A stretch of DNA of 64,000 nt from Verrucomicrobiaceae bacterium (GCA_027483175.1 JAIXVE010000265.1:6530-70529), one strand, 5' to 3'. Positions 31,567 through 60,462 are shown, numbered from the stretch's first letter. Program-made: numbers and translations. The notes: generated from the sequence alone by a model not told the origin.

Positions 31567-31585
31567 TTTCCCCTGATTCCCCATG
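31567..31585 (+). promoter_or_regulatory. Pyrimidine-rich translation-initiation leader TTTCCCCTGATTCCCC-ATG, shared with 48764-48788
   Basis: The string CCCCTGATTCCCC lies directly before the ATG of both the 3254 aa and the 2247 aa genes. No purine-rich SD is present. Confidence 0.35.
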
Positions 31586-34500
31586 CGTTCCTCCCTGTTG
31601 CTTGCGTTGCTGCTGCCTGCTGTGGCGATTCCTTTGTATGCCGTGCCGACGGCGGTGAATGACACGTTTACGACCCCGGAGGACACGGCGTTGTCTGGCG
31701 GGTCGGTGACGAATCCTCTGCTGGTGACGGATTTCGAGGCTGGGGGCGCCGGGTTCACGTTGCCGGGGACGTGGGATTATCTGGACACCCTGCTGACGAC
31801 GGCGGCTGGGGGTGCGAACACGTATCCGAGGGATGGGTCGAGTCGGGCGTGGAATGCGGTGGGGTTTGACAAGGCGAGTTCGACGGTGACGGGGTGGAAA
31901 TCGGCGGCGCTGCCGATTCAGGGGGGTGGGGTGGATGCGTTTGCGAATGCGCCGAATCTGCTGGGAGGGATCACGGGGAACAGCGGGGTGAACACGGTGA
32001 ACACGTATCTATTCCGGACGAGCTTCACGATGACGGGAGCGGAGGCGGCGCAGACGTGGAATGCGCGGGTCCTGGCGGACGACGGGTGCATCATTTATGT
32101 GAATGGGGTGGAGGCTGGTCGGTACAATTATCCCGGGAATGTGCCGGTGAATCCGGATGCGCTGGTGGGTGGGAATGGCGGGAGTGAGACGGCGTACACG
32201 ACGGTGCCGCTGACGGTGCCGTTTGCGGTCGGGGAGAATGTGATTGCGGTGGAGCTTCACCAGAACACGAATAACAGTTCGGATGCGGGGATTGATCTGA
32301 CGATTGCGTCGGCGAGTGCGGATCCGCTCCGTGGGATGGTGTATGCGGATGACATTGACGGGACGAACCGTCCTAACGTGGTGTCCGGGGTGCTGGATTC
32401 CGGGACGGGGAATCCGGGGTCGTCGGTGAACGTGTCGTTTTCGCGTGGGTTTGGGGGTGGCGGGAACGGGCCGAATATTTCGGGTGGGTGGCGCAGGACG
32501 ATTGAGGTGCCGGCGGCGGCGACCCTGACGATCAAGTGTGATGCGAGGGCGCGAGCGGTGAATGGATTGGAGGACAACGAGTATGCGGAGGCGATTGTGA
32601 TGCTGGACGGCGTGCGGTTGAGTTCCGGCGGGAGGAATTATCTGGTGAGGCAGGTGGGGGCGAATCCGGCGGGATCGGCTGGAGCGAACGGGAATGCGGA
32701 CAGCGGGTGGGGGACGTACACGATTGAGGTGCCGGTGACGGCGGGGTCGCACGTGGTGGCGTTTGGCGGGTTCGGGCCGCGGCCGAGTGGTGAGAATTTC
32801 GATGTGGATGAGGGCGGGATTGTGAATTTCGACAACATTGATGTGTCGGTGAAGGGGACGGGCGGGTCGCTGCTGGACAACGACACGGGCGGGGTGGCTC
32901 CGGTGACGGCGGTGAAGGTGACGGATCCTGCGAACGGGACCCTTGTGCTAGGGACGACGGGGACGTTCACGTACACGCCGAATGCGAACTGGTTCGGGAC
33001 GGATAGTTTCAGTTATCGGGCGGTGGATTCGACTGGGCAGTCGAATCCTGCGACGGTGACGGTGACGGTGACGCCGGTGAATGATGCGCCGGTGGGGGTG
33101 GCGGACAATTATGCGGTGACGCAGGGTGGGGTGCTGACGGTGCCGGTGGCGCAGGGTGTGCTGGTGAATGACAACGATGTGGACAATGCGGCAGCGACGC
33201 TGACGGCGGTGTCGGCGAGTACGCCGAGCAATGGGGCGGTGGTGCTGAATGCGAACGGGTCGTTCAGTTACACGCCGACGGCGCAGTTTTCGGGGGTGGC
33301 GACGTTTACGTACCGGGTGAGTGACGGGGCGCTGCAGTCGGCTCCGGTGACGGTGACGATTGCGGTGACGGACACGCCGGATGCGCCGGTGGCGGCGGGT
33401 GACAGTTACACGGCGGTGAGGAACACGCCATTGGTGGTGAGTGCGTTGGCTGGCGGGACGACGACGGAGGAACTGCTGCCGTACAAGGGACCTGACTGGC
33501 GGTATTTTGATTCGCTAGTGCTGGCGAGCCGGAATCTGGGGACGGCGTGGCGTGCGGAGGATTTTGTGGAGAACGGGGACTGGAAGACGGGAGCTGGGGA
33601 ATTGGGGTATGGGGACGGGGATGAGGCGACGGTGATCAACGACAATCCGGATCCGGCGTTCAATGCGGCGGCGGGGGACAAGTTTGCGACGTATTATTTC
33701 CGGAGGCCGCTGACGGTGGCGAATGCGTTCAACATCACGGGGGTGGAGGTGTCGGTGATTTACGATGATGCGGTGGCGTTTTACATCAACGGCGGGGCGG
33801 GGACGCGGACGAGCAACCTGCCGGATCTGGCGACGATGCCGGAGTTGGCGTGGGATTATTTCCCGACGACGAATGTGAACGACAATTCGACGCAGACGTT
33901 CACGCTGCCGGCTGGGACGTTTCGCGAGGGGGTGAATCTGCTGGCGGCGGAGGCGCACCAGAACGGGGCGAGTTCGAGTGACATCTCTTTTGACATGCGG
34001 GTTCGGGTGACGCGGGCGATTTCGGCCGGGGTGCTGGCGAATGATACGGATCCTGATCCGGGGGAGACGGCGACGCTGGTGGCGGAACTGGTGACTGGGC
34101 CTGCGCGTGGGAACGTGACCTTGAACAGCAATGGGACGTTTACGTACACGCCTGCGGCGGGTTTTACGGGAGCGGATTCGTTCACGTATCGGGCGCGAGA
34201 CACGAGTGGGCGGGTGTCGGCGGTGGCGACGGCGAGCATCACGGTGGTGACGGGGCCGAATGCGGCGCCGCTAGTGACGGCGGACAGTTATACGACTGCG
34301 GAGGACACGGTGCTGACGGTGACGGCTCCGGGCGTGCTGGCGAATGATGTGGATGGCGAGGGTGATGCGTTTACGGCGTCGGTGGTGACGCAACCGACGC
34401 GCGGGACGGTGGTGATGAATGCGAATGGCGGGTTTGTTTACACGCCGGCCGCGGACTTCAACGGGACGGATACGTTCACGTACCGGGCGACGGACACGCA

Positions 34501-37500
34501 ACCGTCTGCGCCTGCGACGGTGACGGTGACGGTGACGCCGGTGAATGATGCGCCGGTGGCGCGTGCGGACAGTTATGCTGGTGATCCGGGCGTGCCGCTG
34601 ACGATCGGGGCGTCGCAGGGGGTGTTGGCGAATGATACGGATGCGGATGCGGGGACGGTGCTGACAGCGAAGCTGGGGACGCCGCCGGTGGGTGCGACGG
34701 TGACCATGAATTCCGATGGATCGTTTGTGTTCAGCGCGCCGGTGGGCGGGGTGTATACCTTCACGTATCGGGCGCGGGATGAGGCATTGAGTTCGGGTCC
34801 GGTGACGGTGACGGTGTCGCTGAATGCCGCTCCGAGCGGGGTGGCGGATGCGTACAGTGTGGATGAGGACCGGACATTGACGGTGTCTGCGGCGCAGGGC
34901 GTGCTGGCGAACGATGTGGATCCGGAGGGACAGACGGTGACGGCGGTGCTGGTGACGGGCGCGGCGAGGGGGAGCCTGACGCTGAATGCGGATGGGTCCT
35001 TTGAGTACACACCGGCGGCTAACTTTGCGGGGAGTGACAGTTTCAGTTATCGGGCGTCTGATGGCGTGCGTCAGTCGGGTGTGGTGACGGTGGGGCTGAC
35101 GGTGAATGCGGTGAATGATGCGCCGGTGGCGGTGGCGGATGCCTATGGGGTGAAGTTGGACACGCCGCTGACAATTGCGGTGGCGAATGGGGTGTTGAGG
35201 AATGATACGGATGTTGAGGGTGGGGCGCTGACGGCGGTGCTGGTGGCCGCACCGGTGGAGGGGGCGCTGACGCTGCGGAGTGACGGGTCGTTTGATTATG
35301 TGCCGCCGACTGGGTATTCGGGGACGACGACGTTCAGTTACCGTGCGAGTGACGGGGCGCTGACGTCGGCGGTGACGGTGGTGACGCTGAATGTGACGGC
35401 GGATCTGAACACGGTGATGATCAGTGAGATCATGTACAATCCGCCGGGAGCTGCCGGGGTGTTTGAGGAGTTCATTGAGGTTTACAATTTCGGGGATGCG
35501 GCGGTGGATCTGACGGGATGGGAGTTCAGCAAGGGGGTGAACTATGTGTTTCCAGCGGGGCAGTTGCTGCCTGCGAAGGCGTCGCTGGCGGTGCCTGCGG
35601 ACAAGGCGGCATTCACGGCGAAGTATGGCGCTGGGGCGGCGGCGACGGCGACTGGGTGGGGGCCGTTGTCGCGGTTGAGCAACAGCGGGGAGATGATTCG
35701 GCTGAAGAATGCGCTAGGGGAGACGGTGGACGAGGTGGAGTATGCGGATTCCGGTGACTGGGCGGTGCGGAAGATTGTGGGTGTGTGGGATGCGACGAAC
35801 ACGCCTGGGCAGACCCCGGCGAATGGATTGGACACGGATCCTGGACTGGAGTGGGTGACGGCGGCGGATCCTGATCCGGAGATTGGGAATGCTGGCGGGT
35901 CGTCGATTCAGTTGATCAATCCTGCGCTTTCGAACAAGGCTGGGGTGAACTGGGCGGCGGCGGTGCCGACGCCTGGGGCTGCGAATGCGCTGGTGGCTCG
36001 TGCGAACAGTGCGCCGCTGATTCGGGATGTGGTGCATAGTCCGGCGGTGCCGAACCGGACCCAGCAGGTGACGGTGACGGCGCGGATCACGGATGAACTG
36101 ACGACGGGGATCAGTGCGTCGGTGTTCTTCCGTTCGTGGCTGCCGTCGGGGACGACGCCGGCGGTGGACTGGGATGAAGTGCTGCTGAAGGATGATGGGC
36201 GGAGTGGCGACGGGGTGGCGAACGATGGTATATACGGGGCGGTGCTTCCGGCGCAGGCGTTGAATACGGTGGTGGAGTTTTATGTGAGGGCGGCGGACAG
36301 TGTGGCGAATGTGCGTTCGTGGCCGCCGCCGACGCTGGATTTGAACGGGGCGAATCCGGTGCAGAATGCGAACTGCCTGTATCAGGTGAGTGAGGAGGCG
36401 TGGGCGGATGCGCGGCCGCTGTATCAGGTGGTGATGACTGGGGCGGACAATGCTTCGTGGAATGCTGGTTTGGCGAACCGGACGAGCAATGCGGCACCGA
36501 ACTGCACGGTGATTTTCCGTCAGGGCGGGGCGTTTGATGTGAGGTATCGCGGGAGCATCCGGACGCGGGGGAACAGTTCGCGGAGTGACACGCCGGTGAA
36601 TTTGAGGCTGGATGTGCCTGGTGACGCGTCATGGAACGGCAGGACGGCGTTCACGATGAACTACAAGTATGCGTACAGCCAGTTTCTGGGGAGTCGGCTG
36701 ATGGAGGCGGCGGGAGTGCCGTGTGAGAAGTCGAACGTGGTGGGGATGCGGATCAATGGGGTGAACCGGTTGCTGGATCAGAATGGGAACCGGACGTTTG
36801 GGTATTATTGTGATTTGATTCCGAGGGGCGGGGAGACGATTGACGAGTGGTTCCCGGGGAACAATGACGGGAACGGGTATGGGAAGATCCGCGGGAGTGT
36901 GCGGTGGGGGGTGTCGACGCTGCCGGTGATCGGGGCGAACGGGTGGGCTGAGGGCGGGTATGTGAATGAAGGGTGGTGGAAGCAGACGAATGCGGTGCAG
37001 AATGACTGGGCGGATCTGCATGCGTGGATCACGTCGATGAATGCGGGGACGGCGGACACCTTCCACGAGACGATCAAGAGCACGGTGGACATTGATGAAT
37101 GGTGCCGGTTCCTGGCGATTTCGACGATCATCAACCATGCGGAGACGAACATGGCGAATGGGGATGACGACGATTACTCGGTGTACTTCGGGATTGATGA
37201 CGATTTGTGCCGCCTCATTCCGCACGACATGGACACGTGTTTCAATCTGAACGCGATTGGTCTGGGTGATGAAGTGGCGCCGCCGACGGGGACGATTTAT
37301 CAGTGTACGCAGGCGAATTATCCTGGGGACAACGCGACCTTGCCGCAGATGGACAAGTTCTATCGGAATCCGGTGACGGGTCGGAAGTTCAAGGCGGCAT
37401 TGCGGCGGTATCTGGACACGCTTTTTGCGAAGCCTACGTTTGATGCCTACATTGACACGATGCTGGATGCGCCGTGGATGGGGACGCAGTTCACGCCGAA

Positions 37501-40500
37501 CGGGGATGCGATCCGGGCGCACATCAAAGCGTTCCTGGACACGCGGCGGACGACGATTGAGGCATTTCTGCCGACGGCGTTCACTGCTGGGACGACGCTA
37601 GCGTTGCAGAATGGCGTGCCGCGGACGACGACGGCGACGAATCTGGGGGATTTGGGAGGGAAGATTGATCCGGCGCGGACTGCGGAGGTGCGGGTGAATG
37701 GGATCAAGGTGACGACGAATCCGTATGGATCGACGGCGGCGGCTGACAATTCGTGGAGTGCGGGGACGGCGGTGACGCTGCAGCCGGGGTTGAACACGCT
37801 GGTGTGTACGGCGCATGATGAGGCCGGGAGTGTGTTTGCGAGTCAGACGGTGACGATCTGGTATGATTTGGCCGGGGTGAACCGCAGCGGGACGCTGGCG
37901 GGGAGTGAAACGTGGAGTCCGGCTGCTGGGCCGTACAATGTGACGGCGAACCTGACGGTCCCGAATGGTGCGGTGCTGACGATTCAGCCGGGGACGACGG
38001 TGTTTGTGGCGTCCGGGGCGTCGATCACGGTGAATGCGGGTGGCCGGATTGTGGCTGAGGGGACGGAGGCGGCTGGGATCACGATCGCGCGGATTCCGTC
38101 GGGGACGGGGAACTGGGGTGGGATTACGGTGAGCGGGGCGACGGCCGAGCCGTCGCGGTTCGGGTATCTGACGTTCAGCCAGAATGGGTCGACGGCGATT
38201 CATACGCAGAGCGGGGCGAATGTAGAGATTCACCATGTGACGTTCCTGAATCCAGCGGTGCAGTTCCTGTCGTTCGATGGGAGTTCGTTCCGGGTGAGTG
38301 ACTGTGTGTTCCCTGACAGTACGGCCGGATTTGAGCCGGTGCATGGGACCGGCGGGATTGCGGCGGGTGGTCGCGGGATTATTGAGCGGTGCCGGTTTGG
38401 GAAGACGCAGGGATACAATGATTCGGTTGATTTCACGGGCGGGAACCGGCCGGGGCCGATTCTGCATGTGCTGAACTGTGTGTTTACGGGATCGGACGAT
38501 GACATTCTGGATCTCGACAGCACGGATGCGTGGATTGAGGGGAACGTGTTCATGCATGCGCACCGGAACGGGGCGTCGCCTGACAGTTCGAGTGCGGTGT
38601 CGGGCGGGTCGGACAATGCGGATTACAGTCAGGTGACGGTGATCAACAATCTGATCTATGATTGTGACAATGCGATTACGATGAAGCAGGGCGGGCAGCC
38701 GCAGGGCGGGTCTGGCGTGCTGCTTTACAACACGATTGTGAGGACGACGAAGGTGGGTGGGATTGACGGAGGGTCGGGGATTGTGAACTTCGATGACGAA
38801 GGCGTGACTGGGGAAGGGAAAGGATTCTATCTGGAAGGGAATGTGATCTTTGATGCGGAGAATCTGGCGCGGAATTATGTGCCAGCGAACAGCCGCCTTG
38901 TGATGAATGGGAACTTCCTTCCGGTGGCACCGCCTGCTGGGGTGGAGGCGACGGGGAATGTGATCGGGGCGGACTTGAAGCTGAATCTTGGACTGATCAC
39001 GAATCCTGCGACGGCGACGGCTGAGCAGGTGGTGGCGGCATTGAGGCCGCAGTGGTGTTCGCCGGTGCTGGGGGCTGGGCCGATGGGTGGGAATGCGGGG
39101 GCGGATGTGGCGAAGACGGGGATTCGGGTACAGACCCCGCCGGGGAGTGTGTGGCCGGCGACGTTCACGATTGCGGCGGGGATTGGCGGGAGCTTCACGC
39201 CGACGGGGCAGCCTGCGTGGGCGTATGGGTTCAGCCATTACAAGTACCGGGTGGATGGGGGCGCGGAGAGTCCGGAGATTGCGGTGTCGGTGCCGGCGAC
39301 ATTGAGCGGGTTGAGTGCGGGTGCGCACGTGCTGACGGTGCTAGGGAAGCGTGATTCCGGGTTGTGGCAGGAAGTGCCGACGACGGTGGCGTTCACGGTG
39401 GTGGCGGGGATACCGACGGTGGTGCTGAGTGAAGTGCTGGCGGAGCCGGTGAGCGGGGTGGATTTCGTGGAGTTGCGGAACTGGGGGAGTGAGACGGCGG
39501 TGCTGGACGGTTGCGGGTTGACGGATGACACGGCGGTGCCGGGTCGGTTCACGTTCCCGGTGGGGACGGTGATTGCGCCGGGCGGGTATCTGGTGGTGGA
39601 TGCGACGCAGGCTGGGTTCGGGCTTGATGGTGGCGGTGAGACCGTGCGGTTCACGTCGGCTGGCGGGACGCTGATTGATGAAGTGGCGTTCGGGCCGCAG
39701 TTGAGTGGGAAGTCGGTGGCGCGTGTGGCTGGCGGGTGGCGTTTGTCGGAGCCGACGCCTGCGGCGGCGAACACGGCGGTGTGCGAGACGGGGACTGGGA
39801 GCGGGATCCGGATCAATGAGTGGCTGGGGTCTAACAGCATCATTGTGGCTGGGGACTTTGTGGAGTTGTACAATCCTGAGGCGCTGCCGGTGGACATTGG
39901 CGGGTGGCGGATGAGTCAGGATTACCGGAACGAGCCAGGGCAGAGTGTGTTTCCGCCGCTGAGTTTTGTGGGGGCGCGCGGCTTTCTGTCGCTGGTGGCG
40001 GATGGGAATGCGGCGGCTGGTGGCAATCATCTGGCGTTCAAGATTTCGAGGATTCGGGACACGATTGCGCTGCTGGATGGTGGCGCGGTGCCGGTGGATA
40101 TTGTGACGGTGTTGCCGGGGAATCCTGATGTGTCGCAGGGGCGGACGACGGATGGCGGGTTGACGATCGGGTATCTGCCGCTGCCGACGGCCGGGTTTTC
40201 GAATGGGAGCGATGTGAGTGCGGATGTGACGGTGATGAACGGGCTGCGGATTACGGAGCTGATGTTTGATCCGCCGTCGAGCAGTCAGGCTGAGTACGTT
40301 GAGTTCCGGAACATCACGGCGGTGCCGATGACGCTGACGGGCGTGCGGTTTGCGTCGGGGATTACGTTCACGTTCCCTGTGCTGACGGTGCCTGCGAACG
40401 GGTATGCGGTGATCACGCAGGATCTGGTGAAGTTTGCGGCGCAGTTTCCTGGGGTGAGTGCGGTGCAGTGGGCGGGCGGGCGATTGGACAACAATGGGGA

Positions 40501-41347
40501 GAGCCTGCGTGTGGAGACTGGGGTGTATGGGCTGGGGATTCTCGATTTCCGGTATGAAGGGAATTGGTATCCGGCCACGCGGGCGGGGGCATCGCTGGAG
40601 ATGGTGAATCCGCTGGCGGCGCGGGAGGCGTGGAATGAGAAGGCGAGCTGGCAGCCGTGTGTGCCGAGTCCGGGCGGGCCGTCGGCGTTCGGGGTGGTGA
40701 CGCCGCCGGACACGTCGGTGGGTGTGGGTGAGGTGTTTGCGATTGATGCGGTGGTGTGTCCGGGGCCGCATCCAGCGGCTGGGGTGACGGTGGCGTGGTC
40801 GACGGTGTCCGGGCCAGCGGCGGCGGTGTTTACGGCGCCTGCGAATGGGCGGACGAACGTGACGTTCCCGCAGGCTGGGGTGTACGAGATCCGATTGCTG
40901 GCGACTGGGCCGGGGGGTGTGCAGGCGTCGGATGCGACGGTGGTGACGGTGAGTGAGACGTATGCGCAGTGGGCGGCGCGGGTGATGCCTGGGCTTGGTG
41001 CGGCGGACCGGGAGTCGACGGCTGACCCTGACAAGGATGGGTTCAACAACCTTGTGGAGTTTGCGCTGGGTGGGAATCCGGTACGGAGTGATGCGGGGAG
41101 CCTTGTGACGGTGGTGCCGGGGAGCCTGCCGCTGACGATGACGTGGCGGAGGAATCCTTATGCGAGTCCTGCGCCGGTGATTGTGCCTGAAGTGTCGAGT
41201 GACCTGCAGACATGGGCGTCGGGGCCGGGAGCGGTGGATTCGCTGCTGGTGACGTCGGGTGGCGGGTTGGAGACGTGGAGGAGTGTGGATGCGGGGCCGG
41301 CGGGGAGTCCGCAGCGGTATCTGCGGCTGAAGGTGATTCAGCCGTGA
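31583..41347 (+). CDS. Giant secreted 3254 aa protein: jelly-roll module, about 7 tandem-95/cadherin-like repeats (one split by a second jelly-roll), LTD, CotH, parallel beta-helix, 3 further LTDs, PKD-like domain and C-terminal tail
   Basis: The signal peptide is MRSSLLLALLLPAVAIPLYA. Motifs are the repeated ..NDAPVA.ADSY....D..L.V....GVLANDTD..G..L.A............G.F.YTP...F.G.D.F.Y.A.D; the LTDs ISEIMYNPPG..EFIEVYNFGDAAVDLTGW, VELRNWG, VELYNPEA and VEFRNIT; and CotH IRTRGNSSRS...IPHDMD. It is a single uninterrupted ORF with coherent codon bias. Confidence 0.9.
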   Translation: MRSSLLLALLLPAVAIPLYAVPTAVNDTFTTPEDTALSGGSVTNPLLVTDFEAGGAGFTLPGTWDYLDTLLTTAAGGANTYPRDGSSRAWNAVGFDKASSTVTGWKSAALPIQGGGVDAFANAPNLLGGITGNSGVNTVNTYLFRTSFTMTGAEAAQTWNARVLADDGCIIYVNGVEAGRYNYPGNVPVNPDALVGGNGGSETAYTTVPLTVPFAVGENVIAVELHQNTNNSSDAGIDLTIASASADPLRGMVYADDIDGTNRPNVVSGVLDSGTGNPGSSVNVSFSRGFGGGGNGPNISGGWRRTIEVPAAATLTIKCDARARAVNGLEDNEYAEAIVMLDGVRLSSGGRNYLVRQVGANPAGSAGANGNADSGWGTYTIEVPVTAGSHVVAFGGFGPRPSGENFDVDEGGIVNFDNIDVSVKGTGGSLLDNDTGGVAPVTAVKVTDPANGTLVLGTTGTFTYTPNANWFGTDSFSYRAVDSTGQSNPATVTVTVTPVNDAPVGVADNYAVTQGGVLTVPVAQGVLVNDNDVDNAAATLTAVSASTPSNGAVVLNANGSFSYTPTAQFSGVATFTYRVSDGALQSAPVTVTIAVTDTPDAPVAAGDSYTAVRNTPLVVSALAGGTTTEELLPYKGPDWRYFDSLVLASRNLGTAWRAEDFVENGDWKTGAGELGYGDGDEATVINDNPDPAFNAAAGDKFATYYFRRPLTVANAFNITGVEVSVIYDDAVAFYINGGAGTRTSNLPDLATMPELAWDYFPTTNVNDNSTQTFTLPAGTFREGVNLLAAEAHQNGASSSDISFDMRVRVTRAISAGVLANDTDPDPGETATLVAELVTGPARGNVTLNSNGTFTYTPAAGFTGADSFTYRARDTSGRVSAVATASITVVTGPNAAPLVTADSYTTAEDTVLTVTAPGVLANDVDGEGDAFTASVVTQPTRGTVVMNANGGFVYTPAADFNGTDTFTYRATDTQPSAPATVTVTVTPVNDAPVARADSYAGDPGVPLTIGASQGVLANDTDADAGTVLTAKLGTPPVGATVTMNSDGSFVFSAPVGGVYTFTYRARDEALSSGPVTVTVSLNAAPSGVADAYSVDEDRTLTVSAAQGVLANDVDPEGQTVTAVLVTGAARGSLTLNADGSFEYTPAANFAGSDSFSYRASDGVRQSGVVTVGLTVNAVNDAPVAVADAYGVKLDTPLTIAVANGVLRNDTDVEGGALTAVLVAAPVEGALTLRSDGSFDYVPPTGYSGTTTFSYRASDGALTSAVTVVTLNVTADLNTVMISEIMYNPPGAAGVFEEFIEVYNFGDAAVDLTGWEFSKGVNYVFPAGQLLPAKASLAVPADKAAFTAKYGAGAAATATGWGPLSRLSNSGEMIRLKNALGETVDEVEYADSGDWAVRKIVGVWDATNTPGQTPANGLDTDPGLEWVTAADPDPEIGNAGGSSIQLINPALSNKAGVNWAAAVPTPGAANALVARANSAPLIRDVVHSPAVPNRTQQVTVTARITDELTTGISASVFFRSWLPSGTTPAVDWDEVLLKDDGRSGDGVANDGIYGAVLPAQALNTVVEFYVRAADSVANVRSWPPPTLDLNGANPVQNANCLYQVSEEAWADARPLYQVVMTGADNASWNAGLANRTSNAAPNCTVIFRQGGAFDVRYRGSIRTRGNSSRSDTPVNLRLDVPGDASWNGRTAFTMNYKYAYSQFLGSRLMEAAGVPCEKSNVVGMRINGVNRLLDQNGNRTFGYYCDLIPRGGETIDEWFPGNNDGNGYGKIRGSVRWGVSTLPVIGANGWAEGGYVNEGWWKQTNAVQNDWADLHAWITSMNAGTADTFHETIKSTVDIDEWCRFLAISTIINHAETNMANGDDDDYSVYFGIDDDLCRLIPHDMDTCFNLNAIGLGDEVAPPTGTIYQCTQANYPGDNATLPQMDKFYRNPVTGRKFKAALRRYLDTLFAKPTFDAYIDTMLDAPWMGTQFTPNGDAIRAHIKAFLDTRRTTIEAFLPTAFTAGTTLALQNGVPRTTTATNLGDLGGKIDPARTAEVRVNGIKVTTNPYGSTAAADNSWSAGTAVTLQPGLNTLVCTAHDEAGSVFASQTVTIWYDLAGVNRSGTLAGSETWSPAAGPYNVTANLTVPNGAVLTIQPGTTVFVASGASITVNAGGRIVAEGTEAAGITIARIPSGTGNWGGITVSGATAEPSRFGYLTFSQNGSTAIHTQSGANVEIHHVTFLNPAVQFLSFDGSSFRVSDCVFPDSTAGFEPVHGTGGIAAGGRGIIERCRFGKTQGYNDSVDFTGGNRPGPILHVLNCVFTGSDDDILDLDSTDAWIEGNVFMHAHRNGASPDSSSAVSGGSDNADYSQVTVINNLIYDCDNAITMKQGGQPQGGSGVLLYNTIVRTTKVGGIDGGSGIVNFDDEGVTGEGKGFYLEGNVIFDAENLARNYVPANSRLVMNGNFLPVAPPAGVEATGNVIGADLKLNLGLITNPATATAEQVVAALRPQWCSPVLGAGPMGGNAGADVAKTGIRVQTPPGSVWPATFTIAAGIGGSFTPTGQPAWAYGFSHYKYRVDGGAESPEIAVSVPATLSGLSAGAHVLTVLGKRDSGLWQEVPTTVAFTVVAGIPTVVLSEVLAEPVSGVDFVELRNWGSETAVLDGCGLTDDTAVPGRFTFPVGTVIAPGGYLVVDATQAGFGLDGGGETVRFTSAGGTLIDEVAFGPQLSGKSVARVAGGWRLSEPTPAAANTAVCETGTGSGIRINEWLGSNSIIVAGDFVELYNPEALPVDIGGWRMSQDYRNEPGQSVFPPLSFVGARGFLSLVADGNAAAGGNHLAFKISRIRDTIALLDGGAVPVDIVTVLPGNPDVSQGRTTDGGLTIGYLPLPTAGFSNGSDVSADVTVMNGLRITELMFDPPSSSQAEYVEFRNITAVPMTLTGVRFASGITFTFPVLTVPANGYAVITQDLVKFAAQFPGVSAVQWAGGRLDNNGESLRVETGVYGLGILDFRYEGNWYPATRAGASLEMVNPLAAREAWNEKASWQPCVPSPGGPSAFGVVTPPDTSVGVGEVFAIDAVVCPGPHPAAGVTVAWSTVSGPAAAVFTAPANGRTNVTFPQAGVYEIRLLATGPGGVQASDATVVTVSETYAQWAARVMPGLGAADRESTADPDKDGFNNLVEFALGGNPVRSDAGSLVTVVPGSLPLTMTWRRNPYASPAPVIVPEVSSDLQTWASGPGAVDSLLVTSGGGLETWRSVDAGPAGSPQRYLRLKVIQP
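32870..35400 (+). repeat. Array of about 7 tandem-95/cadherin-like repeats (roughly 95 aa each)
   Basis: See the repeat consensus above. The array includes an exact 49-nt in-frame DNA duplication (33047-33095 = 34511-34559). Confidence 0.8.
36370..37570 (+). other. CotH (atypical kinase fold) domain of the 3254 aa protein
   Basis: FDVRYRGSIRTRGNSSRSDTPVNLRLDV...MNYKYAYSQFLGSRLMEAAGVP...DDDYSVYFGIDDDLCRLIPHDMDTCF matches the family (HDMD at 37223-37234). Confidence 0.7.
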
Positions 41348-43192: not shown

Positions 43193-46100
43193 ATGAAAAG
43201 TTCAGCCCTTTGCGCGGCGCTGACCGTGCTGCTGCCTGTGATGGCAGCGGCGGTCGACAGTGTGGTTGTGTTCAACGAACTGCAGTATCATCCGGTGGCG
43301 GGTGATGCGGGTGGGGAATGGATTGAGTTGCACAATCAGATGGCGATTGATGTGGATCTGTCGGCGTGGCGGATTGAGGCTGGGGTGAGTTATGTGTTTC
43401 CGGAGGGAACGGTGATTGCGGGGGGCGGGTATCTGGTGGTGGCAGCGAATCCAGCGGGATTGCAGGTGGCGGCTGGGGTGACGGGGGTGCTGGGGCCGCT
43501 GACGGGGAGTCTGGCGAATGCGGGGGAGCGGGTGGAGTTGAGGGATCGGAACGGGCGGTTGATGGACCGGATTGATTACCGGGATAGTGGGGAGTGGCCG
43601 GTGGCGGCGGATGGAGCGGGGACGACGCTGGCGAAGCGTGAGCCTGGGACGACGAGTGGCGAGCCGGAGCATTGGACGTCCGGGGTGGTGCTGGGAGGGA
43701 CGCCGGGGGCGCGGAATTTTCCGGATACGAGCACGACGATCCGGCCGCTGGTGCCGATCAACGCGTTGTGGCGGTATGATGCGAGTGGGACGGATCGTGG
43801 GGCGGCGTGGAAGGAGCCCGGGTTTGATGACGGGGCGTGGGCGGGGTTGAACGTGGCGGCGCTGGTGTCCTACTGGCCATTCAACGGGAATGCGACTGCG
43901 GTGAGGGGGACGAACGGGACACCGATCGGGGCGGCGACGCCGGGGGCGGATCGGAATGGGACGGCGGGTCAGGCGCTGGTTTTCAACGGGACCTCGCAGT
44001 ACATCAGTGTGGTGGGTGGAGGAGGGTTGAATGCGGCGGCGAGTGGGACGATTGCGATGTGGGCGCGATGGAACGGGAGCAGTCAGGATGCGGATTGCTG
44101 CGGGACGTTCGGGGCGATTACGGCGCGGCAGAACAATGGCGTGTTTTCGGACACGATTCTGGCGTTGAACGGGGCGAATCCGGCGACGGCGAGGTTGGTG
44201 TGGCGGCAGTCAGGCGGGCCTGCGCCGATCCTGCTGACGAGCACCGCGGCGGTGGGGAATGGGTGGCGGCATGTGGCGGTAACGTTTTCGCCTGGGGGGA
44301 GTACGTTGTATGTGGATGGGGTCGCGCAGGCGACGGCGACGGGGAGTCCGATGAACAACGGGAGTGCGACGCCGTTGTCGTTAGGGGCGTGGGGTGGGGA
44401 TGGGACGGGGTTCATGAATGGGAGTCTGGATGATGTGGCGGTGTGGGATCAGCCGCTGACGGCGGCGCAGATTGCGGCGCTGGCGGCGGGGACGAAGGGG
44501 CCGATGGATTTTGCGAATGCGGAGAGTGCGGTGTATTTCAGTGGGGACGGGAAGCTGGCGACGAGTGACGAGTTGCGGAAGACGGCGCTGGCGGGGACGC
44601 CGGTGACGTCGTATTTCCGGCGGGCGTTCGACGTAACGGATCCAGTTTCGAGGATGTCATTGAAGCTGGATCTGGCGGTGGATGACGGGGCGGTGGTGTA
44701 TTTGAACGGGACGGAAGTGTACCGGCACAATCTGGCGGCTGGGGCGGTGGGGTTTGGGACCCTAGCAACGGCGGTGGTGGGGGATGCGCCGCTGCTGAGC
44801 GGGATCGATATTCCGTCGGGGGCCTTGGTGGTGGGGAGGAATGTGCTGGCGGTGGAGGTGCACCAGGCGGCGGAGGTGGACGGCGGGATGGTGTTCGGAG
44901 CTGGATTGACGGGGATTGTGCAGGCGGCTGGGCTGGCGGCGACGGTGCCGAACGATCTGGTGATTAACGAAGTGACGGCGGCGGGTGGGCCGTTGCGGAT
45001 TGAGTTGATGAATCGTGGGGCGGGAGTGGTGGAGACGGCGGGGTATGCGCTGGTGCGGACGGGTTCGGGGGTGGATTTACGTTATGCGTTGCCGGGTCAG
45101 GCGATTCCGGCTGGCGGGATGGTGGTGGTGGAGGCGGCGGCGCACGGTTTTCCAGGGCTAGATGGGGACCGAGTGTTTCTGATTCGGGAGAGCGCGGGGA
45201 CGGTGGCGGACGCGGTGGTGGTGGAGAGTCAGGGGAGGGCGCGGTATCCGGATGGGCGAGGGGAGTTTCTGACGCCGACGGTGTTCACGCCTGGGGCGTC
45301 GAATGTGGTGGTGCTGCAGACGGGTGTGGTGATCAATGAGATCATGTACAATGGGCCGCCGGTGCTGGAGCAGCCGGCGGCGGGCGGGAATCCGGCGGTG
45401 CCGTTCAGCAGGTCGGTGGAGCAATGGATAGAGCTGCACAATCGGGAGGCGGCGGCGGTGGCGATTGGTGGATGGGCGATGGATGGCGGAGTGCGCTATC
45501 AATTTCCGGCGGGGACGGTGATTCCGGCGGGAGGGTATCTGGTGGTGGCGCGGGATCCGGCGGCGCTGGCGGTGAAGTTTCCGGGATTGGTGGCGCTGGG
45601 GCCGTTCGAGGGGAGTTTGTCAGGGAGCGGGGAGGAAGTGGTGCTGCGGGATGGCGTGGGCAATCCGGCGGATGAGGTGCATTATTATGATGATGGGGCG
45701 TGGCCGGAGGCGGCGGACGGGGGCGGGTCGAGTCTGGAGTTGAAGGATCCGAGGTCGGACAACAATGCGGGCGGGAGCTGGGCGGCGAGTGACGAGCGGA
45801 GCCGGAGCGGATGGAAGACTTACAGTTATACGGGAGTGGCGGCGGCGAGTCAGATCGGGCCGGACACACAGTGGCGGGAGTTTGTGCTTGGGTTGATGGA
45901 TAAGGGGGAAGTGCTGCTCGATGACATCAGTGTGGTGGAGTCGCCTGCGGGGACGCCGGTGGAAATGCTGCAGAACGGGAGTTTCGGGACGGATGCGGCG
46001 AGGTGGCGGATTATTGGGAATCATTCCGGGACGGTGGTGGATGATCCGGATCAGGTGGGGAACAAAGTGCTGAGGCTGGTATCGACTGGGAGTACGGATC

Positions 46101-48709
46101 ACATGAGCAACCATGCGGAGACGACGTTTGGATCGTCGCGGAGTGTGGTGAATGGGCGGACGTACCGGATTTCGTATCGTGCGAAGTGGATCAGCGGGTG
46201 CCGGCAGTTGAACACGAGACTGTACTTCAATCGATTGGCGAGGACGACGGTGCTGGACGGTCCGGGGGTGCAGATCGGGACGCCGGGGAGTGTGAACAGC
46301 AGGAGGGTGGCGAATGCGGGGCCTGTGTTTGCGGGATTGCGGCATGATCCAGCGGTGCCGGCGGCGTTCGGGACGGTGGCGGTGACGGTGCGTGCGGGTG
46401 ATCCTGACGGAGTTGGGCCGGTGGTGTTGTGGTCGCGGGTGGACGGCGGGGCGTGGGTGAGTCAGGCGATGGATCCGGTGGAGGGGGATGCGGGGAATTA
46501 CCGTGCGGTGCTGGCGGGGAGAGCGGCTGGGACGGTGGTGCAGTTTTATGTGGCGGCGACGGATGGGGCTGGTGCGACGGCGGTGTATCCGGCGGGGGGT
46601 GTGGATTCGCGGGCGATGTATGAGGTGAATGACGGGCTGGCGGCGACGAACGGGTTGCACAACATGCGGCTGGTGACGCTGAAGGCGGATGCGGACTGGA
46701 TGCACACGACGATCAATCTGATGAGCAATCAGCGGATCGGGGCGACGCTGGTGGTGGACGAGAAGGAAGTGATTTACGACATCGGGTTGAGGTTGAAGGG
46801 GAGCGAGCACAGCCGGACGACGAGTGCGCGGTTAGGGTTCAATCTGGGATTTGATTCGGAGCATCTGTTCCGCGGCGTGCATCGGAGTCTGGCGATTGAC
46901 CGGTCGGAGAGCACTGGGTTCGGGCAGCGGGAGATGCTGGCGCATCAGATGCTGAATCATGCGGGCGGGGTGCCGACAAAGTATCATGATCTGTGTCAGG
47001 TGATCGCGCCTCGATTGGAGCATACGGGGAGTGCGGAGCTGCAACTGGCGCGGTACACGGATGTGTTTCTGGATGATCAGTATGAGAACGGGAGTGACGG
47101 GATGTTGTTTGAGTATGAGCTGGTGTATCAGCTGAATTCGACGGACAACGGGACGCCGGAGGGGAACAAAGTGCCGGCACCGGATTCGGTGGTGGGAACG
47201 ACGATTCGGAACATGGGGGATGACAAGGAGCAGTACCGGTGGACTTATCTGATCAAGAACAACGAGGATCGGGATGATTACAGCCGGGTGATGGCGTGGG
47301 CGAAGTGGATGGCGACGACGGGGACGGCGTTCACGAGTCAGATTCCGGCGTTTCTTGAACCGGAGCAGTGGCTGCGGGGGCACGCGGTGAATGTGCTGAC
47401 GGGGGCTGGGGACAGTTATGGCGGGGACGGGGCGCAGCACAACGTGCAGTTCTATGTGCGGCCGACGGACGGGCGGATGCTGTATTTTCCGCATGACATG
47501 GATGCGTTCTACGATGCGAACCGGACGATTTATCCTAACGCGGATTTGAACAAGATACTGGCGGTTCCGGGGTATGCGCGGCTGTATTTCGGGCAACTGC
47601 TGGAGATTCTGGAGACGACGTACAATACGGGGTACATGCAGCGTTGGGCGGATCATTTCGGGCGATTGCTGCCGGCGCAGCCGTTTGCGAGTCATCTGAC
47701 GTTCATCGGGCAGAGAGCAACGGTGGTGCGGACGGCGGTGAATGCGGCGGTGTCGCCGAACACGCCGTTTGCGATCAGCACGAATGGGGGTGCGGACACG
47801 ACGGTGGCGACGGGGATGCTGAACCTGACGGGAACGGCGAACCTGAGTGTGCGGACGGTTCAGGTGAACGGGGTGAATTATCCGCTGACGTGGACATCGC
47901 GGACCGTGTGGTCGGTGGCGGTGCCGCTGCAGACGGGGGCGAATCTGCTGCGGGTGCAGGGGATTGACCGGTCGGGGAATGCGCTAGTTGCGGCGGTGGA
48001 TACGATCACGGTGACGAACACGGGGCCGCCGGGGAATCAGCCGGTGAGGATCAACGAGTGGATGGCGGACAACCGCGGGCCGGGCGGTTTTGCGGATCCT
48101 GCGGACGGGTTGTTCCAGGACTGGATTGAATTGTTCAACGGGAATGCAGATCCGGTGGATTTGTCAGGTTATCTGCTGAGTGACGATGCGGCGGCGCCTG
48201 GGAAGTGGGTGGTGCCGGCGGGGACGGTGATTCCGGCGCGCGGGTTTCTGATGATCTGGGCGGATGGGGTGACGGCGCAGAATACGCCGGGGAACGGGTT
48301 GCATGCTGGGTTTCAGCTGAGCAGTGCGGGGGAGTTTCTGGGCTTGTACAATGCGGCGGGGGTGGCGCAGCACACGCTGGTGTTCGGGGAGCAGCAGGTG
48401 AATGTGAGTCAGGGGTTGTTTCCGGATGGCAACGTGGGGGTTCCGGCGTATGCGATGCGGAATGCGACGCCGCGGTGGCCGAATACGCTGGCGGGGCCGC
48501 TGGAGGTGACTGGTTTCGGGCGGAATGGGTCGGTGAGCACCCTGACTTTCACGAGTCTGCCGGGGAGGAGTTACCGGGTGGAGTTTACTGATGGGGTGGG
48601 GCCGTGGACGGCGCTGGTTCCGGATGTGGCGGCGGTGGGTGACGTGTCGTCGGCGACGGATACGACGGGGAATGCGCGGCGGTTTTACCGGGTGCGGCGG
48701 GTGGAGTGA
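43193..48709 (+). CDS. Giant secreted 1838 aa protein: LTD, jelly-roll module split by a LamG domain, 2 LTDs, CBM-like domain, CotH, Ig-like domain, LTD and short C-terminal tail
   Basis: The signal peptide is MKSSALCAALTVLLPVMAAA. The LTDs are VVFNELQYHP..GEWIELHNQMAIDVDLSAW, INEIMYNGPP...EQWIELHNREAAAVAIGGW and RINEWMADN...QDWIELFNGNADPVDLSGY. LamG is SYWPFNGNA...LDDVAVWDQPLT. CotH is LRLKGSEHSR...YFPHDMDAFY. Confidence 0.9.
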   Translation: MKSSALCAALTVLLPVMAAAVDSVVVFNELQYHPVAGDAGGEWIELHNQMAIDVDLSAWRIEAGVSYVFPEGTVIAGGGYLVVAANPAGLQVAAGVTGVLGPLTGSLANAGERVELRDRNGRLMDRIDYRDSGEWPVAADGAGTTLAKREPGTTSGEPEHWTSGVVLGGTPGARNFPDTSTTIRPLVPINALWRYDASGTDRGAAWKEPGFDDGAWAGLNVAALVSYWPFNGNATAVRGTNGTPIGAATPGADRNGTAGQALVFNGTSQYISVVGGGGLNAAASGTIAMWARWNGSSQDADCCGTFGAITARQNNGVFSDTILALNGANPATARLVWRQSGGPAPILLTSTAAVGNGWRHVAVTFSPGGSTLYVDGVAQATATGSPMNNGSATPLSLGAWGGDGTGFMNGSLDDVAVWDQPLTAAQIAALAAGTKGPMDFANAESAVYFSGDGKLATSDELRKTALAGTPVTSYFRRAFDVTDPVSRMSLKLDLAVDDGAVVYLNGTEVYRHNLAAGAVGFGTLATAVVGDAPLLSGIDIPSGALVVGRNVLAVEVHQAAEVDGGMVFGAGLTGIVQAAGLAATVPNDLVINEVTAAGGPLRIELMNRGAGVVETAGYALVRTGSGVDLRYALPGQAIPAGGMVVVEAAAHGFPGLDGDRVFLIRESAGTVADAVVVESQGRARYPDGRGEFLTPTVFTPGASNVVVLQTGVVINEIMYNGPPVLEQPAAGGNPAVPFSRSVEQWIELHNREAAAVAIGGWAMDGGVRYQFPAGTVIPAGGYLVVARDPAALAVKFPGLVALGPFEGSLSGSGEEVVLRDGVGNPADEVHYYDDGAWPEAADGGGSSLELKDPRSDNNAGGSWAASDERSRSGWKTYSYTGVAAASQIGPDTQWREFVLGLMDKGEVLLDDISVVESPAGTPVEMLQNGSFGTDAARWRIIGNHSGTVVDDPDQVGNKVLRLVSTGSTDHMSNHAETTFGSSRSVVNGRTYRISYRAKWISGCRQLNTRLYFNRLARTTVLDGPGVQIGTPGSVNSRRVANAGPVFAGLRHDPAVPAAFGTVAVTVRAGDPDGVGPVVLWSRVDGGAWVSQAMDPVEGDAGNYRAVLAGRAAGTVVQFYVAATDGAGATAVYPAGGVDSRAMYEVNDGLAATNGLHNMRLVTLKADADWMHTTINLMSNQRIGATLVVDEKEVIYDIGLRLKGSEHSRTTSARLGFNLGFDSEHLFRGVHRSLAIDRSESTGFGQREMLAHQMLNHAGGVPTKYHDLCQVIAPRLEHTGSAELQLARYTDVFLDDQYENGSDGMLFEYELVYQLNSTDNGTPEGNKVPAPDSVVGTTIRNMGDDKEQYRWTYLIKNNEDRDDYSRVMAWAKWMATTGTAFTSQIPAFLEPEQWLRGHAVNVLTGAGDSYGGDGAQHNVQFYVRPTDGRMLYFPHDMDAFYDANRTIYPNADLNKILAVPGYARLYFGQLLEILETTYNTGYMQRWADHFGRLLPAQPFASHLTFIGQRATVVRTAVNAAVSPNTPFAISTNGGADTTVATGMLNLTGTANLSVRTVQVNGVNYPLTWTSRTVWSVAVPLQTGANLLRVQGIDRSGNALVAAVDTITVTNTGPPGNQPVRINEWMADNRGPGGFADPADGLFQDWIELFNGNADPVDLSGYLLSDDAAAPGKWVVPAGTVIPARGFLMIWADGVTAQNTPGNGLHAGFQLSSAGEFLGLYNAAGVAQHTLVFGEQQVNVSQGLFPDGNVGVPAYAMRNATPRWPNTLAGPLEVTGFGRNGSVSTLTFTSLPGRSYRVEFTDGVGPWTALVPDVAAVGDVSSATDTTGNARRFYRVRRVE
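46616..47740 (+). other. CotH domain of the 1838 aa protein
   Basis: IGLRLKGSEHSRTTSARLGFNLGF...REMLAHQMLNHAGGVP...HNVQFYVRPTDGRMLYFPHDMDAFY matches the family (HDMD at 47492-47503). Confidence 0.7.
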
Positions 48710-60366: not shown

Positions 60367-60462
60367 TGAGGCAGAGTGGGTCGATGGGTCGGGTGGCGGC
60401 GGGTCGAAATGTCTTGGCAAGTGGGTGGTGGGAGGCATGTATGGGAGGATGGGAGACGAATC

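What the first reader, a model, noticed from the sequence alone, without database searches (positions are those of the whole stretch)
36370..37570. Both CotH modules keep the Asp-rich core despite being on exported proteins (second copy 46616-47740)
In the 3254 aa protein the sequence reads DDDYSVYFGIDDDLCRLIPHDMDTCF (HDMD 37223-37234). In the 1838 aa protein it reads HNVQFYVRPTDGRMLYFPHDMDAFY (HDMD 47492-47503). Both also keep the basic G(N/S)xxS strand (IRTRGNSSRS and LRLKGSEHSR). From memory, the aspartates of the equivalent PxDxD segment lie in the active site of characterised CotH kinases. If so, these would be catalytically competent kinases working outside the cytoplasm, where the ATP supply and the substrates are unexplained.
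Basis: partly seen in the sequence, partly recalled or inferred. Interest (0 to 1): 0.6.

Follow-up and report, generated by a model that had tools for sequence, protein, structure and literature searches.

The report
Exported CotH kinase-fold modules, Verrucomicrobia
Two giant exported surface proteins of a freshwater Verrucomicrobiales bacterium each carry a genuine CotH-type kinase-fold domain with a conserved metal-binding site. This is an ordinary member of a very large, already annotated family, but the larger protein's domain lacks the textbook catalytic aspartate.

Summary
HDMD lies at 37223-37234 in the 3254 aa protein and at 47492-47503 in the 1838 aa protein. Both domains are true CotH folds. 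Pfam PF08757 scores sit just above threshold, profile comparison to Bacillus CotH gives probabilities of 99% and 90%, and AlphaFold models hit B. cereus CotH (5JD9/5JDA) first, at E 6e-17 and 4e-12.

I mapped the published active-site residues. The 1838 aa protein keeps all three: D1412, N1417 and D1435, the equivalents of PKA D166, N171 and D184. The 3254 aa protein keeps the metal aspartate D1882. It has Asn1859 where the catalytic Asp should be and Asp1864 in place of the Asn. That variant loop marks a whole clade, in which position 1859 is Asp in only 3 of 147 clusters. E1854, D1864, D1882 and D1884 stay invariant there.

The adenine-stacking Trp245 of Bacillus CotH is His in both modules.

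Lamin-tail/CotH proteins with signal peptides are widespread in Verrucomicrobiota and Planctomycetota. Extracellular CotH proteins are also known from cellulosomes and fungi. The finding is real but mostly ordinary. Catalytic competence is plausible for one module and open for the other. The phosphate-donor question remains unsolved.

The parts
31583..41347 (+). Gene for the 3254 aa exported multidomain protein: 7 cadherin-like/Big_9 repeats, LTD, CotH, beta-helix, 3 LTD, PKD, C-terminal tail
   Evidence: ORF list; translation; Pfam; NCBIfam tandem-95 repeats
31583..31642 (+). Probable Sec signal peptide (aa 1-20, MRSSLLLALLLPAVAIPLYA)
   Evidence: Read directly from the translation. An orthologue is annotated 'exported protein of unknown function'. 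No predictor was run.
35387..35761 (+). Lamin tail domain 1 (aa 1269-1393), upstream of the CotH module
   Evidence: Pfam LTD best stretch 1276-1388; phmmer mapping
36416..37573 (+). CotH kinase-fold module of the 3254 aa protein (aa 1612-1997)
   Evidence: Pfam PF08757 34.3 bits. Profile vs 5jd9 E 1.2e-9. hhalign vs Bacillus CotH prob 99.2, 335 columns. AF2 pLDDT 80 and Foldseek 5jda E 6e-17, TM 0.78.
36560..36583 (+). Basic strand R1660-T-R1662-G1663-N-S-S-R1667. It aligns with Bacillus V-Y-R45-G46-x-H-I-R50.
   Evidence: R1662 and G1663 are 147/147, R1667 is 142/147.
37142..37174 (+). Variant catalytic loop E1854-T-N-M-A-N1859-G1860-D-D-D1863-D1864. N1859 sits at the position of the Bacillus catalytic Asp, and D1863-D1864 replace His-Asn.
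   Evidence: HMMER, hhalign and three MAFFT modes agree. Column counts: E1854, G1860 and D1864 are 147/147; position 1859 is N88, T30, S10, D3.
37223..37234 (+). H1881-D1882-M-D1884. It is equivalent to Bacillus W245-D246-Y-D248 (B. subtilis D251, PKA D184).
38111..38551 (+). Right-handed beta-helix region (aa 2177-2323) downstream of the CotH module
   Evidence: Pfam PF13229, 25.7 bits, just below its cutoff of 25.9. Its motif recurs about 460 aa after the CotH motif in 37 of 117 relatives.
39392..40567 (+). Lamin tail domains 2-4 (aa 2604-2995)
43193..48709 (+). Gene for the 1838 aa exported protein: LTD, LamG, LTD, LTD, CotH, LTD, C-terminal tail
43193..43252 (+). Probable Sec signal peptide (aa 1-20, MKSSALCAALTVLLPVMAAA)
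   Evidence: Read directly from the translation. No predictor was run.
46670..47743 (+). CotH kinase-fold module of the 1838 aa protein (aa 1160-1517)
   Evidence: Pfam PF08757 24.9 bits vs cutoff 23.8. Profile vs 5jd9 E 0.005. hhalign prob 90.5 vs Bacillus and 99.8 vs the other module's family. AF2 pLDDT 70 and Foldseek 5jd9 E 3.9e-12, TM 0.67.
46790..46816 (+). Basic strand R1200-L-K1202-G1203-S-E-H-S-R1208
   Evidence: K1202 is 119/121, R1208 is 121/121.
47411..47443 (+). Canonical catalytic loop with a 5-residue insert: D1407-S-Y-G-G-D1412-G-A-Q-H1416-N1417. D1412-G-x-x-H-N matches Bacillus D223-G-F-V-H-N228.
   Evidence: D1407, H1416 and N1417 are 121/121; D1412 is 109/121.
47492..47503 (+). 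H1434-D1435-M-D1437, the metal-site Asp pair
48071..48496 (+). Lamin tail domain 4 (aa 1627-1768), downstream of the CotH module

Best explanation
Both regions are genuine CotH-family (Fam20-like atypical kinase fold) modules. They sit between lamin-tail domains in two giant proteins of a freshwater Verrucomicrobiales bacterium. Those proteins carry Sec signal peptides and many adhesin-like domains.

Shown here:
- the CotH fold
- homology to Bacillus CotH
- family-wide invariance of the basic R/K-G...R strand and of the H-D-x-D pair, which corresponds to the metal-binding Asp (B. subtilis D251)

The 1838 aa protein keeps the whole published catalytic triad (D1412, N1417, D1435). I infer that it is most likely an active divalent-cation-dependent phosphotransferase that works after export, on a surface or extracellular protein or glycan.

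The 3254 aa protein belongs to a separate and very large clade found in Verrucomicrobiota, Kiritimatiellia and Planctomycetota. In that clade the catalytic Asp is replaced by Asn, Thr or Ser, the His-Asn pair is Asp-Asp, and an invariant Glu sits five residues upstream. The site is under strong purifying selection, so I infer that it still binds metal and phosphate. Its chemistry may differ from that of Bacillus CotH, for example through a relocated base, low activity like HER3, or another transfer reaction.

The adenine-stacking Trp is His in both modules. Nucleotide binding, and even the identity of the phosphoryl donor outside the cytoplasm, therefore remains an inference.

My odds:
- both are true CotH-fold modules on exported proteins: about 0.95
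- the 1838 aa module is catalytically active: about 0.6
- the 3254 aa module is catalytically active in some transfer reaction: about 0.45
For: - Pfam PF08757 is above the gathering score in both proteins.
- A profile of 21 relatives hits only 5jd9/5jda 'Spore coat protein H' in the PDB, at E 1.2e-9. The second family's profile also hits it, at E 0.005.
- hhalign gives 99.2%, 90.5% and 99.8% for the three family pairs.
- AF2 models (pLDDT 80 and 70) have the B. cereus CotH kinase as top Foldseek hit, at E 6e-17 and 3.9e-12. Other atypical kinases follow: HipA, CtkA, PI3K and hydra Fam20.
- The published active-site residues are equivalents of PKA D166, N171 and D184, with a Tyr142/Trp245 adenine sandwich (PMC12189002). 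D228Q and D251A are inactive (PMC7821199).
- The family is large: more than 1173 relatives of one module and 785 clusters at 50% identity for the other, nearly all in proteins of 700-5000 aa.
- The taxonomy of 80 loci is.
Against: - No biochemical data exist for any lamin-tail/CotH protein of this kind.
- In the 3254 aa module the D166-equivalent is Asn, a classic pseudokinase signature.
- Trp245 is His in both modules. The Tyr142 position is not aromatic by strict register: Gly1767 in this protein (R/K in its family) and Glu1307 in the other.
- Even in the 1838 aa family, D1412 is lost in 12 of 121 members.
- The catalytic loops carry a 5-residue insert and are the least confident parts of the models. 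pLDDT is below 50 at aa 1410-1413 and averages 64 over aa 1855-1864.
- There is no known ATP source in the periplasm or outside the cell.
- Export rests on signal peptides read by eye and on domain content.
Confidence: 0.75

Rival explanations
1. Non-catalytic binding module. The CotH fold serves as an adhesin or ligand-binding domain. This would resemble the way Rhizopus CotH proteins act in binding host GRP78, and the speculated plant-cell-wall binding of cellulosomal CotH proteins. The conserved charged residues would bind a ligand or a metal rather than catalyse transfer.
For: - Mucorales CotH proteins act as virulence factors through binding of human GRP78 (PMC9973265).
- Both proteins here are built from adhesin-type domains.
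- The catalytic Asp is lost in the 3254 aa clade, and Trp245 is replaced in both.
- There is no obvious ATP outside the cell.
Against: Invariance falls on exactly the residues that bind metal and phosphate in kinases: R-G...R, D/N at the N171 position, and D-x-D. It holds across 147 clusters at or below 50% identity. The 1838 aa module keeps the complete triad, which a pure binding module would not need.
Confidence: 0.2
2. The modules are phosphotransferases, but they are not ATP-dependent protein kinases. They would phosphorylate a glycan or another polymer, as Fam20B and POMK do in the same superfamily. Alternatively they would use an exported donor such as polyphosphate.
For: - CotH genes are linked to a polyphosphate-polymerase-like gene and DUF4956 next to Gram-positive pel loci (10.1101/768473).
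- Earlier notes of this scan report the same link for lamin-tail/CotH proteins in many phyla (unchecked leads).
- The adenine sandwich is not conserved here.
- Neighbouring domains are carbohydrate-type: LamG and beta-helix here, and CHB_HEX_C_1 in the neighbour protein of L081.
- Hydra Fam20 with sugar is the third Foldseek hit for the 1838 aa module, although weak at E 0.028.
Against: - No VTC or DUF4956 gene was found among about 45 ORFs of this window.
- None lies within 10 kb of two orthologues.
- No biochemical precedent exists for a polyphosphate-using CotH.
Confidence: 0.2
3. The 3254 aa module is a dead pseudokinase that serves only as a scaffold. The 1838 aa module is the only active enzyme of the pair.
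For: The D166-equivalent is Asn1859 and the N171-equivalent is Asp1864. The Asn-for-catalytic-Asp change is the signature of pseudokinases such as HER3 (general knowledge). A second CotH protein of another type also lies next to the orthologue in L081, which suggests pairing.
Against: Pseudoenzymes usually let their active-site residues drift. Here E1854, G1860, D1864, D1882, D1884, R1662 and G1663 are 147/147 and D1863 is 142/147.
Confidence: 0.25

Closest known systems
Bacillus CotH spore-coat Ser/Thr kinase (B. subtilis CotH; B. cereus CotH, PDB 5JD9/5JDA; Pfam PF08757)
   Same: - The fold is the same (Foldseek TM 0.67-0.78).
- The R-G...R strand is shared.
- The G-x-x-(H/D)-(N/D)-Y catalytic-loop frame is in exact register.
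- The D-x-D metal site lies 18 residues after the Asn position.
- The 1838 aa module keeps D-G-x-x-H-N and D-x-D completely.
   Different: - Bacillus CotH is a single-domain protein of about 360 aa that acts in the mother cell, where ATP is present.
- The modules here are embedded in Sec-exported proteins of 1838 and 3254 aa.
- Sequence identity is only about 16%.
- There is a 5-residue insert before the catalytic loop with an invariant acidic residue.
- Trp245 is His.
- In the 3254 aa module the catalytic Asp is Asn and His-Asn is Asp-Asp.
Cellulosomal and fungal extracellular CotH proteins (C. thermocellum CseP Cthe_0044; Cthe_0239 with LTD-LTD-Fn3-CotH-dockerin; Neocallimastigomycota dockerin-CotH; Mucorales CotH1-17)
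   Same: They are exported or surface-located CotH modules. Cthe_0239 even has the same LTD + CotH combination (PMC6083626). Their function outside the cell is likewise unknown (PMC12484212).
   Different: - The organisms and anchoring devices differ: dockerin or GPI there, against a Verrucomicrobial C-terminal tail here.
- Those proteins are much smaller.
- I made no sequence-level comparison with them.
Fam20C/Fam20B secretory-pathway kinases
   Same: They belong to the same atypical kinase superfamily and act outside the cytosol. Fam20B shows that members can phosphorylate sugars. Hydra Fam20 appears as a weak structural hit.
   Different: Fam20 kinases work in the Golgi lumen, which imports ATP. 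Similarity to them here is remote (E 0.03). They lack lamin-tail domains.
cotH / polyphosphate-polymerase / DUF4956 accessory gene set of Gram-positive pel loci
   Same: It also involves a CotH-like protein in a non-sporulating, envelope-related context with an unexplained phosphate donor (10.1101/768473).
   Different: The partner genes are absent from this window and from the 10 kb flanks of two orthologues.

Membership tests
CotH kinase family (Pfam PF08757) | Match to the family HMM above the gathering score | tested here: met
   34.3 bits (3254 aa protein) and 24.9 bits (1838 aa protein) against a cutoff of 23.8. Both are marginal. hhalign against 120 Bacillaceae CotH backs them up: prob 99.2, E 1.7e-19 and prob 90.5, E 1.4e-6.
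CotH kinase family (Pfam PF08757) | Atypical protein-kinase-like fold of B. cereus CotH (5JD9/5JDA) | tested here: met
   The top Foldseek hits of both AF2 models are 5jda/5jd9: E 6e-17 with TM 0.78, and E 3.9e-12 with TM 0.67. The next hits are 9 or more orders of magnitude weaker.
CotH kinase family (Pfam PF08757) | Metal-binding Asp equivalent to PKA D184 (B. subtilis D251, B. cereus D246) | tested here: met
   D1882 and D1435 are invariant in 147 and 121 relatives and aligned in every method. The B. subtilis numbering is inferred from 363 aa orthologues and the 23-residue spacing, because the B. subtilis sequence itself was not retrieved.
CotH kinase family (Pfam PF08757) | Catalytic Asp equivalent to PKA D166 (B. 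subtilis D228, B. cereus D223), immediately before the invariant Gly | tested here: inconclusive
   Met in the 1838 aa module: D1412-G, conserved in 109/121. Not met in the 3254 aa module: N1859-G, and the family has N88, T30, S10 and D3 of 147. An invariant Glu1854 five residues upstream might substitute. Without model coordinates this could not be checked.
CotH kinase family (Pfam PF08757) | Asn equivalent to PKA N171 (B. cereus N228) | tested here: inconclusive
   N1417 is kept (121/121) in the 1838 aa module. In the 3254 aa module it is replaced by the invariant Asp1864 (147/147).
CotH kinase family (Pfam PF08757) | Adenine sandwiched by Tyr142 and Trp245 (PMC12189002, citing Nguyen 2016) | tested here: not met
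   The Trp245 position is His in both: H1881 in 132/147 and H1434 in 120/121. The strict Tyr142 register gives Gly1767 in this protein (R/K in its family) or Glu1307. An invariant aromatic lies one or two residues away (Y1766; F1306/Y1308), so the Tyr part is uncertain.
CotH kinase family (Pfam PF08757) | Protein kinase activity (autophosphorylation, substrate phosphorylation) | not testable with these tools
   This needs expression and a radiolabelled or antibody-based assay.
Secreted/extracytoplasmic kinases (Fam20C-like, cellulosomal CotH) | Export from the cytoplasm | tested here: inconclusive
   N-terminal sequences have a charged n-region, a hydrophobic stretch of 13-15 residues and small residues before the likely cleavage site. 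Domain content is typical of surface proteins. An orthologue is annotated as an exported protein. No predictor or experimental localisation was available.
CotH-VTC-DUF4956 envelope phosphate module | Adjacent polyphosphate-polymerase-like (VTC) and DUF4956 genes | tested here: not met
   None was found among the ORFs of the 64 kb window scanned with Pfam. None lies within 10 kb of orthologues L081 and L082.

The most novel reading that the evidence does not exclude
The 3254 aa type of module would define a distinct, uncharacterised enzymatic branch of the CotH family. The branch is widespread on giant surface proteins of Verrucomicrobiota, Kiritimatiellia and Planctomycetota. Its signature is E-T-N-x-x-[NTS]-G-x-x-D-D-Y ... 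H-D-x-D-T. In this branch the catalytic base has moved or the reaction has changed, for example to a different phosphoryl donor such as polyphosphate, or to transfer onto a glycan or another extracellular polymer. That change would explain how it can work where there is no ATP.
Probability: 0.25. Interest if true: 0.6.

Novelty: new member of a known kind. Interest (0 to 1): 0.3.

Why it matters
Lamin-tail/CotH proteins are among the commonest giant surface proteins of Verrucomicrobiota and Planctomycetota, and nobody knows what they do. This analysis shows that their kinase-like sites are under strict conservation and fall into at least two types, one canonical and one without the textbook catalytic Asp. 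That gives concrete residues to mutate and two natural, neighbouring test cases for the standing question of what extracellular CotH modules catalyse and with which donor. It does not reveal a new kind of system.

Tried and rejected
- Single-sequence phmmer of either module against PDB sequences found no CotH. Profiles were needed.
- BLASTP of one module against the other's family found nothing at 1e-5. Direct pairwise BLAST gave only a 90-residue match around the catalytic loop and HDMD.
- I considered an alternative alignment that puts the 5-residue insert after the catalytic acid. E1854 and D1407 would then be the D166-equivalents, because both lie 9 residues after a conserved Ala, as Bacillus D223 does. 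I now rate it less likely. HMMER, hhalign and three MAFFT modes all place the Bacillus Asp directly before the invariant Gly. A third CotH type in L081 (Pfam 110 bits) also has 'D-G', at a different distance from the helix. It is not excluded.
- The original Nguyen et al. 2016 paper and its commentary are not held. Active-site residues were taken from papers that cite it.
No count of CotH genes and no VTC/DUF4956 search in the whole genome was possible.
- The run search (kind any) found only runs labelled DNA, all freshwater, lake or aquatic metagenomes, and no RNA run, so there is no expression evidence.
- AF2 model coordinates are not exposed, so distances between E1854, N1859, D1864 and D1882 could not be measured.
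- My three family HMMs did not detect the CotH of the L081 neighbour, which is a third subtype.

Full report
**Observation**

The window holds two long + strand ORFs, 31583-41347 (3254 aa) and 43193-48709 (1838 aa). HDMD lies at aa 1881-1884 (nt 37223-37234) in the first and at aa 1434-1437 (nt 47492-47503) in the second. Both proteins begin with sequences that look like Sec signal peptides: MRSSLLLALLLPAVAIPLYA and MKSSALCAALTVLLPVMAAA. No predictor was available, so this rests on reading the sequence.

**Domain identity**

- Pfam gives CotH (PF08757) only marginally: 34.3 and 24.9 bits against a cutoff of 23.8.
- Both proteins have four lamin-tail domains. The large protein adds seven cadherin-like/Big_9 repeats and a beta-helix. 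The smaller one adds a LamG domain.
- Single-sequence searches of the PDB found nothing.
- A profile of 21 relatives of the 3254 aa module hits only B. cereus 'Spore coat protein H' (5jd9/5jda), at E 1.2e-9 over residues 37-355.
- A profile of 17 relatives of the other module hits the same chain at E 0.005.
- Profile-profile comparison with 120 Bacillaceae CotH proteins gives probability 99.2% (E 1.7e-19, 335 columns) and 90.5% (E 1.4e-6, 318 columns). The two modules' families match each other at 99.8% (E 2.7e-30).
- AlphaFold2 models (pLDDT 80/pTM 0.84 and pLDDT 70/pTM 0.70) have 5jda/5jd9 as top Foldseek hits, at E 6e-17 with TM 0.78 and E 3.9e-12 with TM 0.67. HipA, CtkA, PI3K and hydra Fam20 follow far behind.

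The fold assignment is therefore secure.

**Published active-site residues**

B. subtilis CotH D228Q and D251A are catalytically inactive (PMC7821199). A 2025 review that cites the original structure paper states two things. CotH keeps the equivalents of PKA D166, N171 and D184. It also sandwiches the adenine between Tyr142 and Trp245 (PMC12189002).

In 120 Bacillaceae CotH proteins, D-G-x-x-H-N and P-W-D-x-D are invariant. In the commonest 363 aa form the two Asp are residues 228 and 251, 23 apart. In B. cereus numbering they are D223, N228, W245 and D246.

**Mapping onto the window's proteins**

From the invariant Gly through the D-x-D pair, all three families align without a gap.

| Bacillus residue (PKA equivalent) | 1838 aa module | 3254 aa module |
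|---|---|---|
| D223 (D166, catalytic Asp) | D1412 | N1859 |
| H227 | H1416 | D1863 |
| N228 (N171) | N1417 | D1864 |
| W245 (adenine stacking) | H1434 | H1881 |
| D246 (D184, metal site) | D1435 | D1882 |
| D248 | D1437 | D1884 |

- The 1838 aa module reads D1412-G-A-Q-H1416-N1417 ... P-H1434-D1435-M-D1437, so all three catalytic equivalents are present.
- The 3254 aa module reads N1859-G1860-D-D-D1863-D1864 ... P-H1881-D1882-M-D1884. The metal Asp is present. The catalytic Asp position is Asn, and the His-Asn pair is Asp-Asp.
It replaces F-V-H-N.
It is invariant in all three families: R1662-G1663...R1667 and K1202-G1203...R1208.

**Family-wide conservation**

An exhaustive search with the 3254 aa module found 785 clusters at 50% identity, almost all inside proteins of 700-5000 aa. 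In 147 aligned representatives:

- E1854, G1860, D1864, D1882, D1884, R1662 and G1663 are 147/147.
- D1863 is 142/147.
- Position 1859 is N88, T30, S10, R6, I3, D3.

The variant loop is therefore a clade signature, not a local decay. The site is under strong constraint.

In 121 relatives of the 1838 aa module (all at or above 50% identity), D1407, H1416, N1417, D1435, D1437 and R1208 are invariant. D1412 is present in 109.

Both clades carry a 5-residue insert before the loop, with an invariant acidic residue: E1854 and D1407. I considered whether that residue is the true D166-equivalent. Every automatic aligner puts the Bacillus Asp directly before the invariant Gly. A third CotH subtype next to an orthologue also has D-G, at a different distance from the preceding helix. 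I therefore favour the reading that N1859 sits at the catalytic position and that E1854 is at most a substitute.

**Nucleotide pocket**

Trp245 is His in both modules and nearly throughout both clades: 132/147 and 120/121. By strict register the Tyr142 position is Gly1767 in this protein (R/K in its family) and Glu1307 in the other. An invariant aromatic lies one or two residues away. The unusual adenine sandwich of Bacillus CotH is thus not demonstrably kept. That leaves the nature and affinity of the donor open.

**Distribution and context**

- Relatives of the 1838 aa module number more than 1173. They carry the same LTD/LamG/CotH architecture in Verrucomicrobiales, Pedosphaera and Planctomycetota, where NCBI calls them 'lamin tail domain-containing protein'.
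- Eighty genome loci with the 3254 aa type come from Verrucomicrobiota (Verrucomicrobiales, Akkermansiaceae, Roseibacillus, Pedosphaera, Limisphaerales, Opitutia), Kiritimatiellia and Planctomycetota. The nearest is a lake MAG at 97% identity.
- Public runs that hold the sequence are labelled DNA and are freshwater, lake or aquatic metagenomes. No RNA run was found.
- In the window, an FGGY sugar kinase separates the two genes, and a 2247 aa Calx-beta/PKD protein follows them.
- A 59%-identical orthologue of the large protein also has a second LTD-CotH-LTD protein 3.7 kb upstream, of a third CotH subtype.
- An orthologue of the 1838 aa protein has no such neighbour.

**Is 'exported CotH' new?**

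No. CotH is described as distantly related to the Fam20C secretory-pathway kinases.

- C. thermocellum cellulosomes contain CseP (CotH) and Cthe_0239 (LTD-LTD-Fn3-CotH) (PMC6083626).
- About 20% of the dockerin proteins of anaerobic fungi are CotH proteins (PMC8665504).
- Mucorales CotH proteins have signal peptides and GPI anchors (PMC9973265).
- A 2025 review says the role of cellulosomal CotH 'is not clear yet' (PMC12484212).
- Large Bacteroides DGR variable proteins also contain CotH-like regions.

The question of the phosphate donor outside the cytoplasm is real, but it is general to this family.

**The polyphosphate lead**

Earlier notes of this scan and a preprint on Gram-positive pel loci (10.1101/768473) link cotH genes to a polyphosphate-polymerase-like gene and DUF4956. 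I looked for these partners. None is among about 45 ORFs of the window. None lies within 10 kb of two orthologues.

**Verdict**

Both modules are real CotH folds with a conserved metal site on apparently exported proteins. One keeps the full canonical catalytic set. The other belongs to a large clade with a non-canonical loop that lacks the textbook catalytic Asp. Whether either transfers phosphate, from what donor and to what acceptor, needs the bench.

The finding is a new member of a known and heavily populated kind. The variant-loop clade is the only part that might repay further study.

Noticed in passing
window 38111-38551 (aa 2177-2323 of the 3254 aa protein); relatives P0159-P0306: A beta-helix region lies about 460 aa after the CotH HDxD motif. 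It carries a strongly conserved motif (H-x-H-K/R-N-G ... [FY]-D-x-D-[HNQ]-A). The motif recurs at the same distance (433-479 aa) in 37 of 117 distant relatives with enough sequence, which suggests a CotH + beta-helix supermodule.
   Followed up: partly
L081 1338-6239 (next to the orthologue at L081 10001-19849): A 59%-identical orthologue of the 3254 aa protein also has a second LTD-CotH-LTD protein (1633 aa, with CHB_HEX_C_1/Fn3_assoc) 3.7 kb upstream. Its CotH is a third subtype (Pfam 110 bits; loop KQI-D-G-YRLS, site PLWDYN). Pairing of two different CotH giants may be a recurring arrangement.
   Followed up: partly
protein P0236 (3293 aa), aa ~760 and ~2898: One relative carries two CotH modules of different types in a single chain. 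One has the variant E-T-N..G..DD..HDMD type. The other has a canonical-looking D-I-G-Y-G-K-N-Y ... P-W-D-V-D type.
   Followed up: no
window 41431-43137 (+): An FGGY-family sugar kinase gene (568 aa) sits alone between the two CotH giants on the same strand. No other sugar-catabolism gene was seen nearby.
   Followed up: no
window 60376-63791 (+): This is a gene pair typical of Planctomycetes/Verrucomicrobia. The first is a 683 aa protein with PSCyt1, PSD3, PSD5, PSD4, PSCyt3 and PSD2 domains (DUF1585-1595 series). It is followed by a DUF1552 (HXXSHH) protein.
   Followed up: no
window 20981-23077 (+): A 698 aa protein combines Redoxin/AhpC-TSA, a copper type II monooxygenase C-terminal-like domain and EF-hand motifs. 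This is an unusual fusion.
   Followed up: no
window 4605-8588 (-) and 8800-11367 (+): There are two further large proteins. One is 1327 aa with C-type lectin and PA14 hits. The other is 855 aa with a bacterial TSP3 repeat. The region is rich in surface-protein genes.
   Followed up: no
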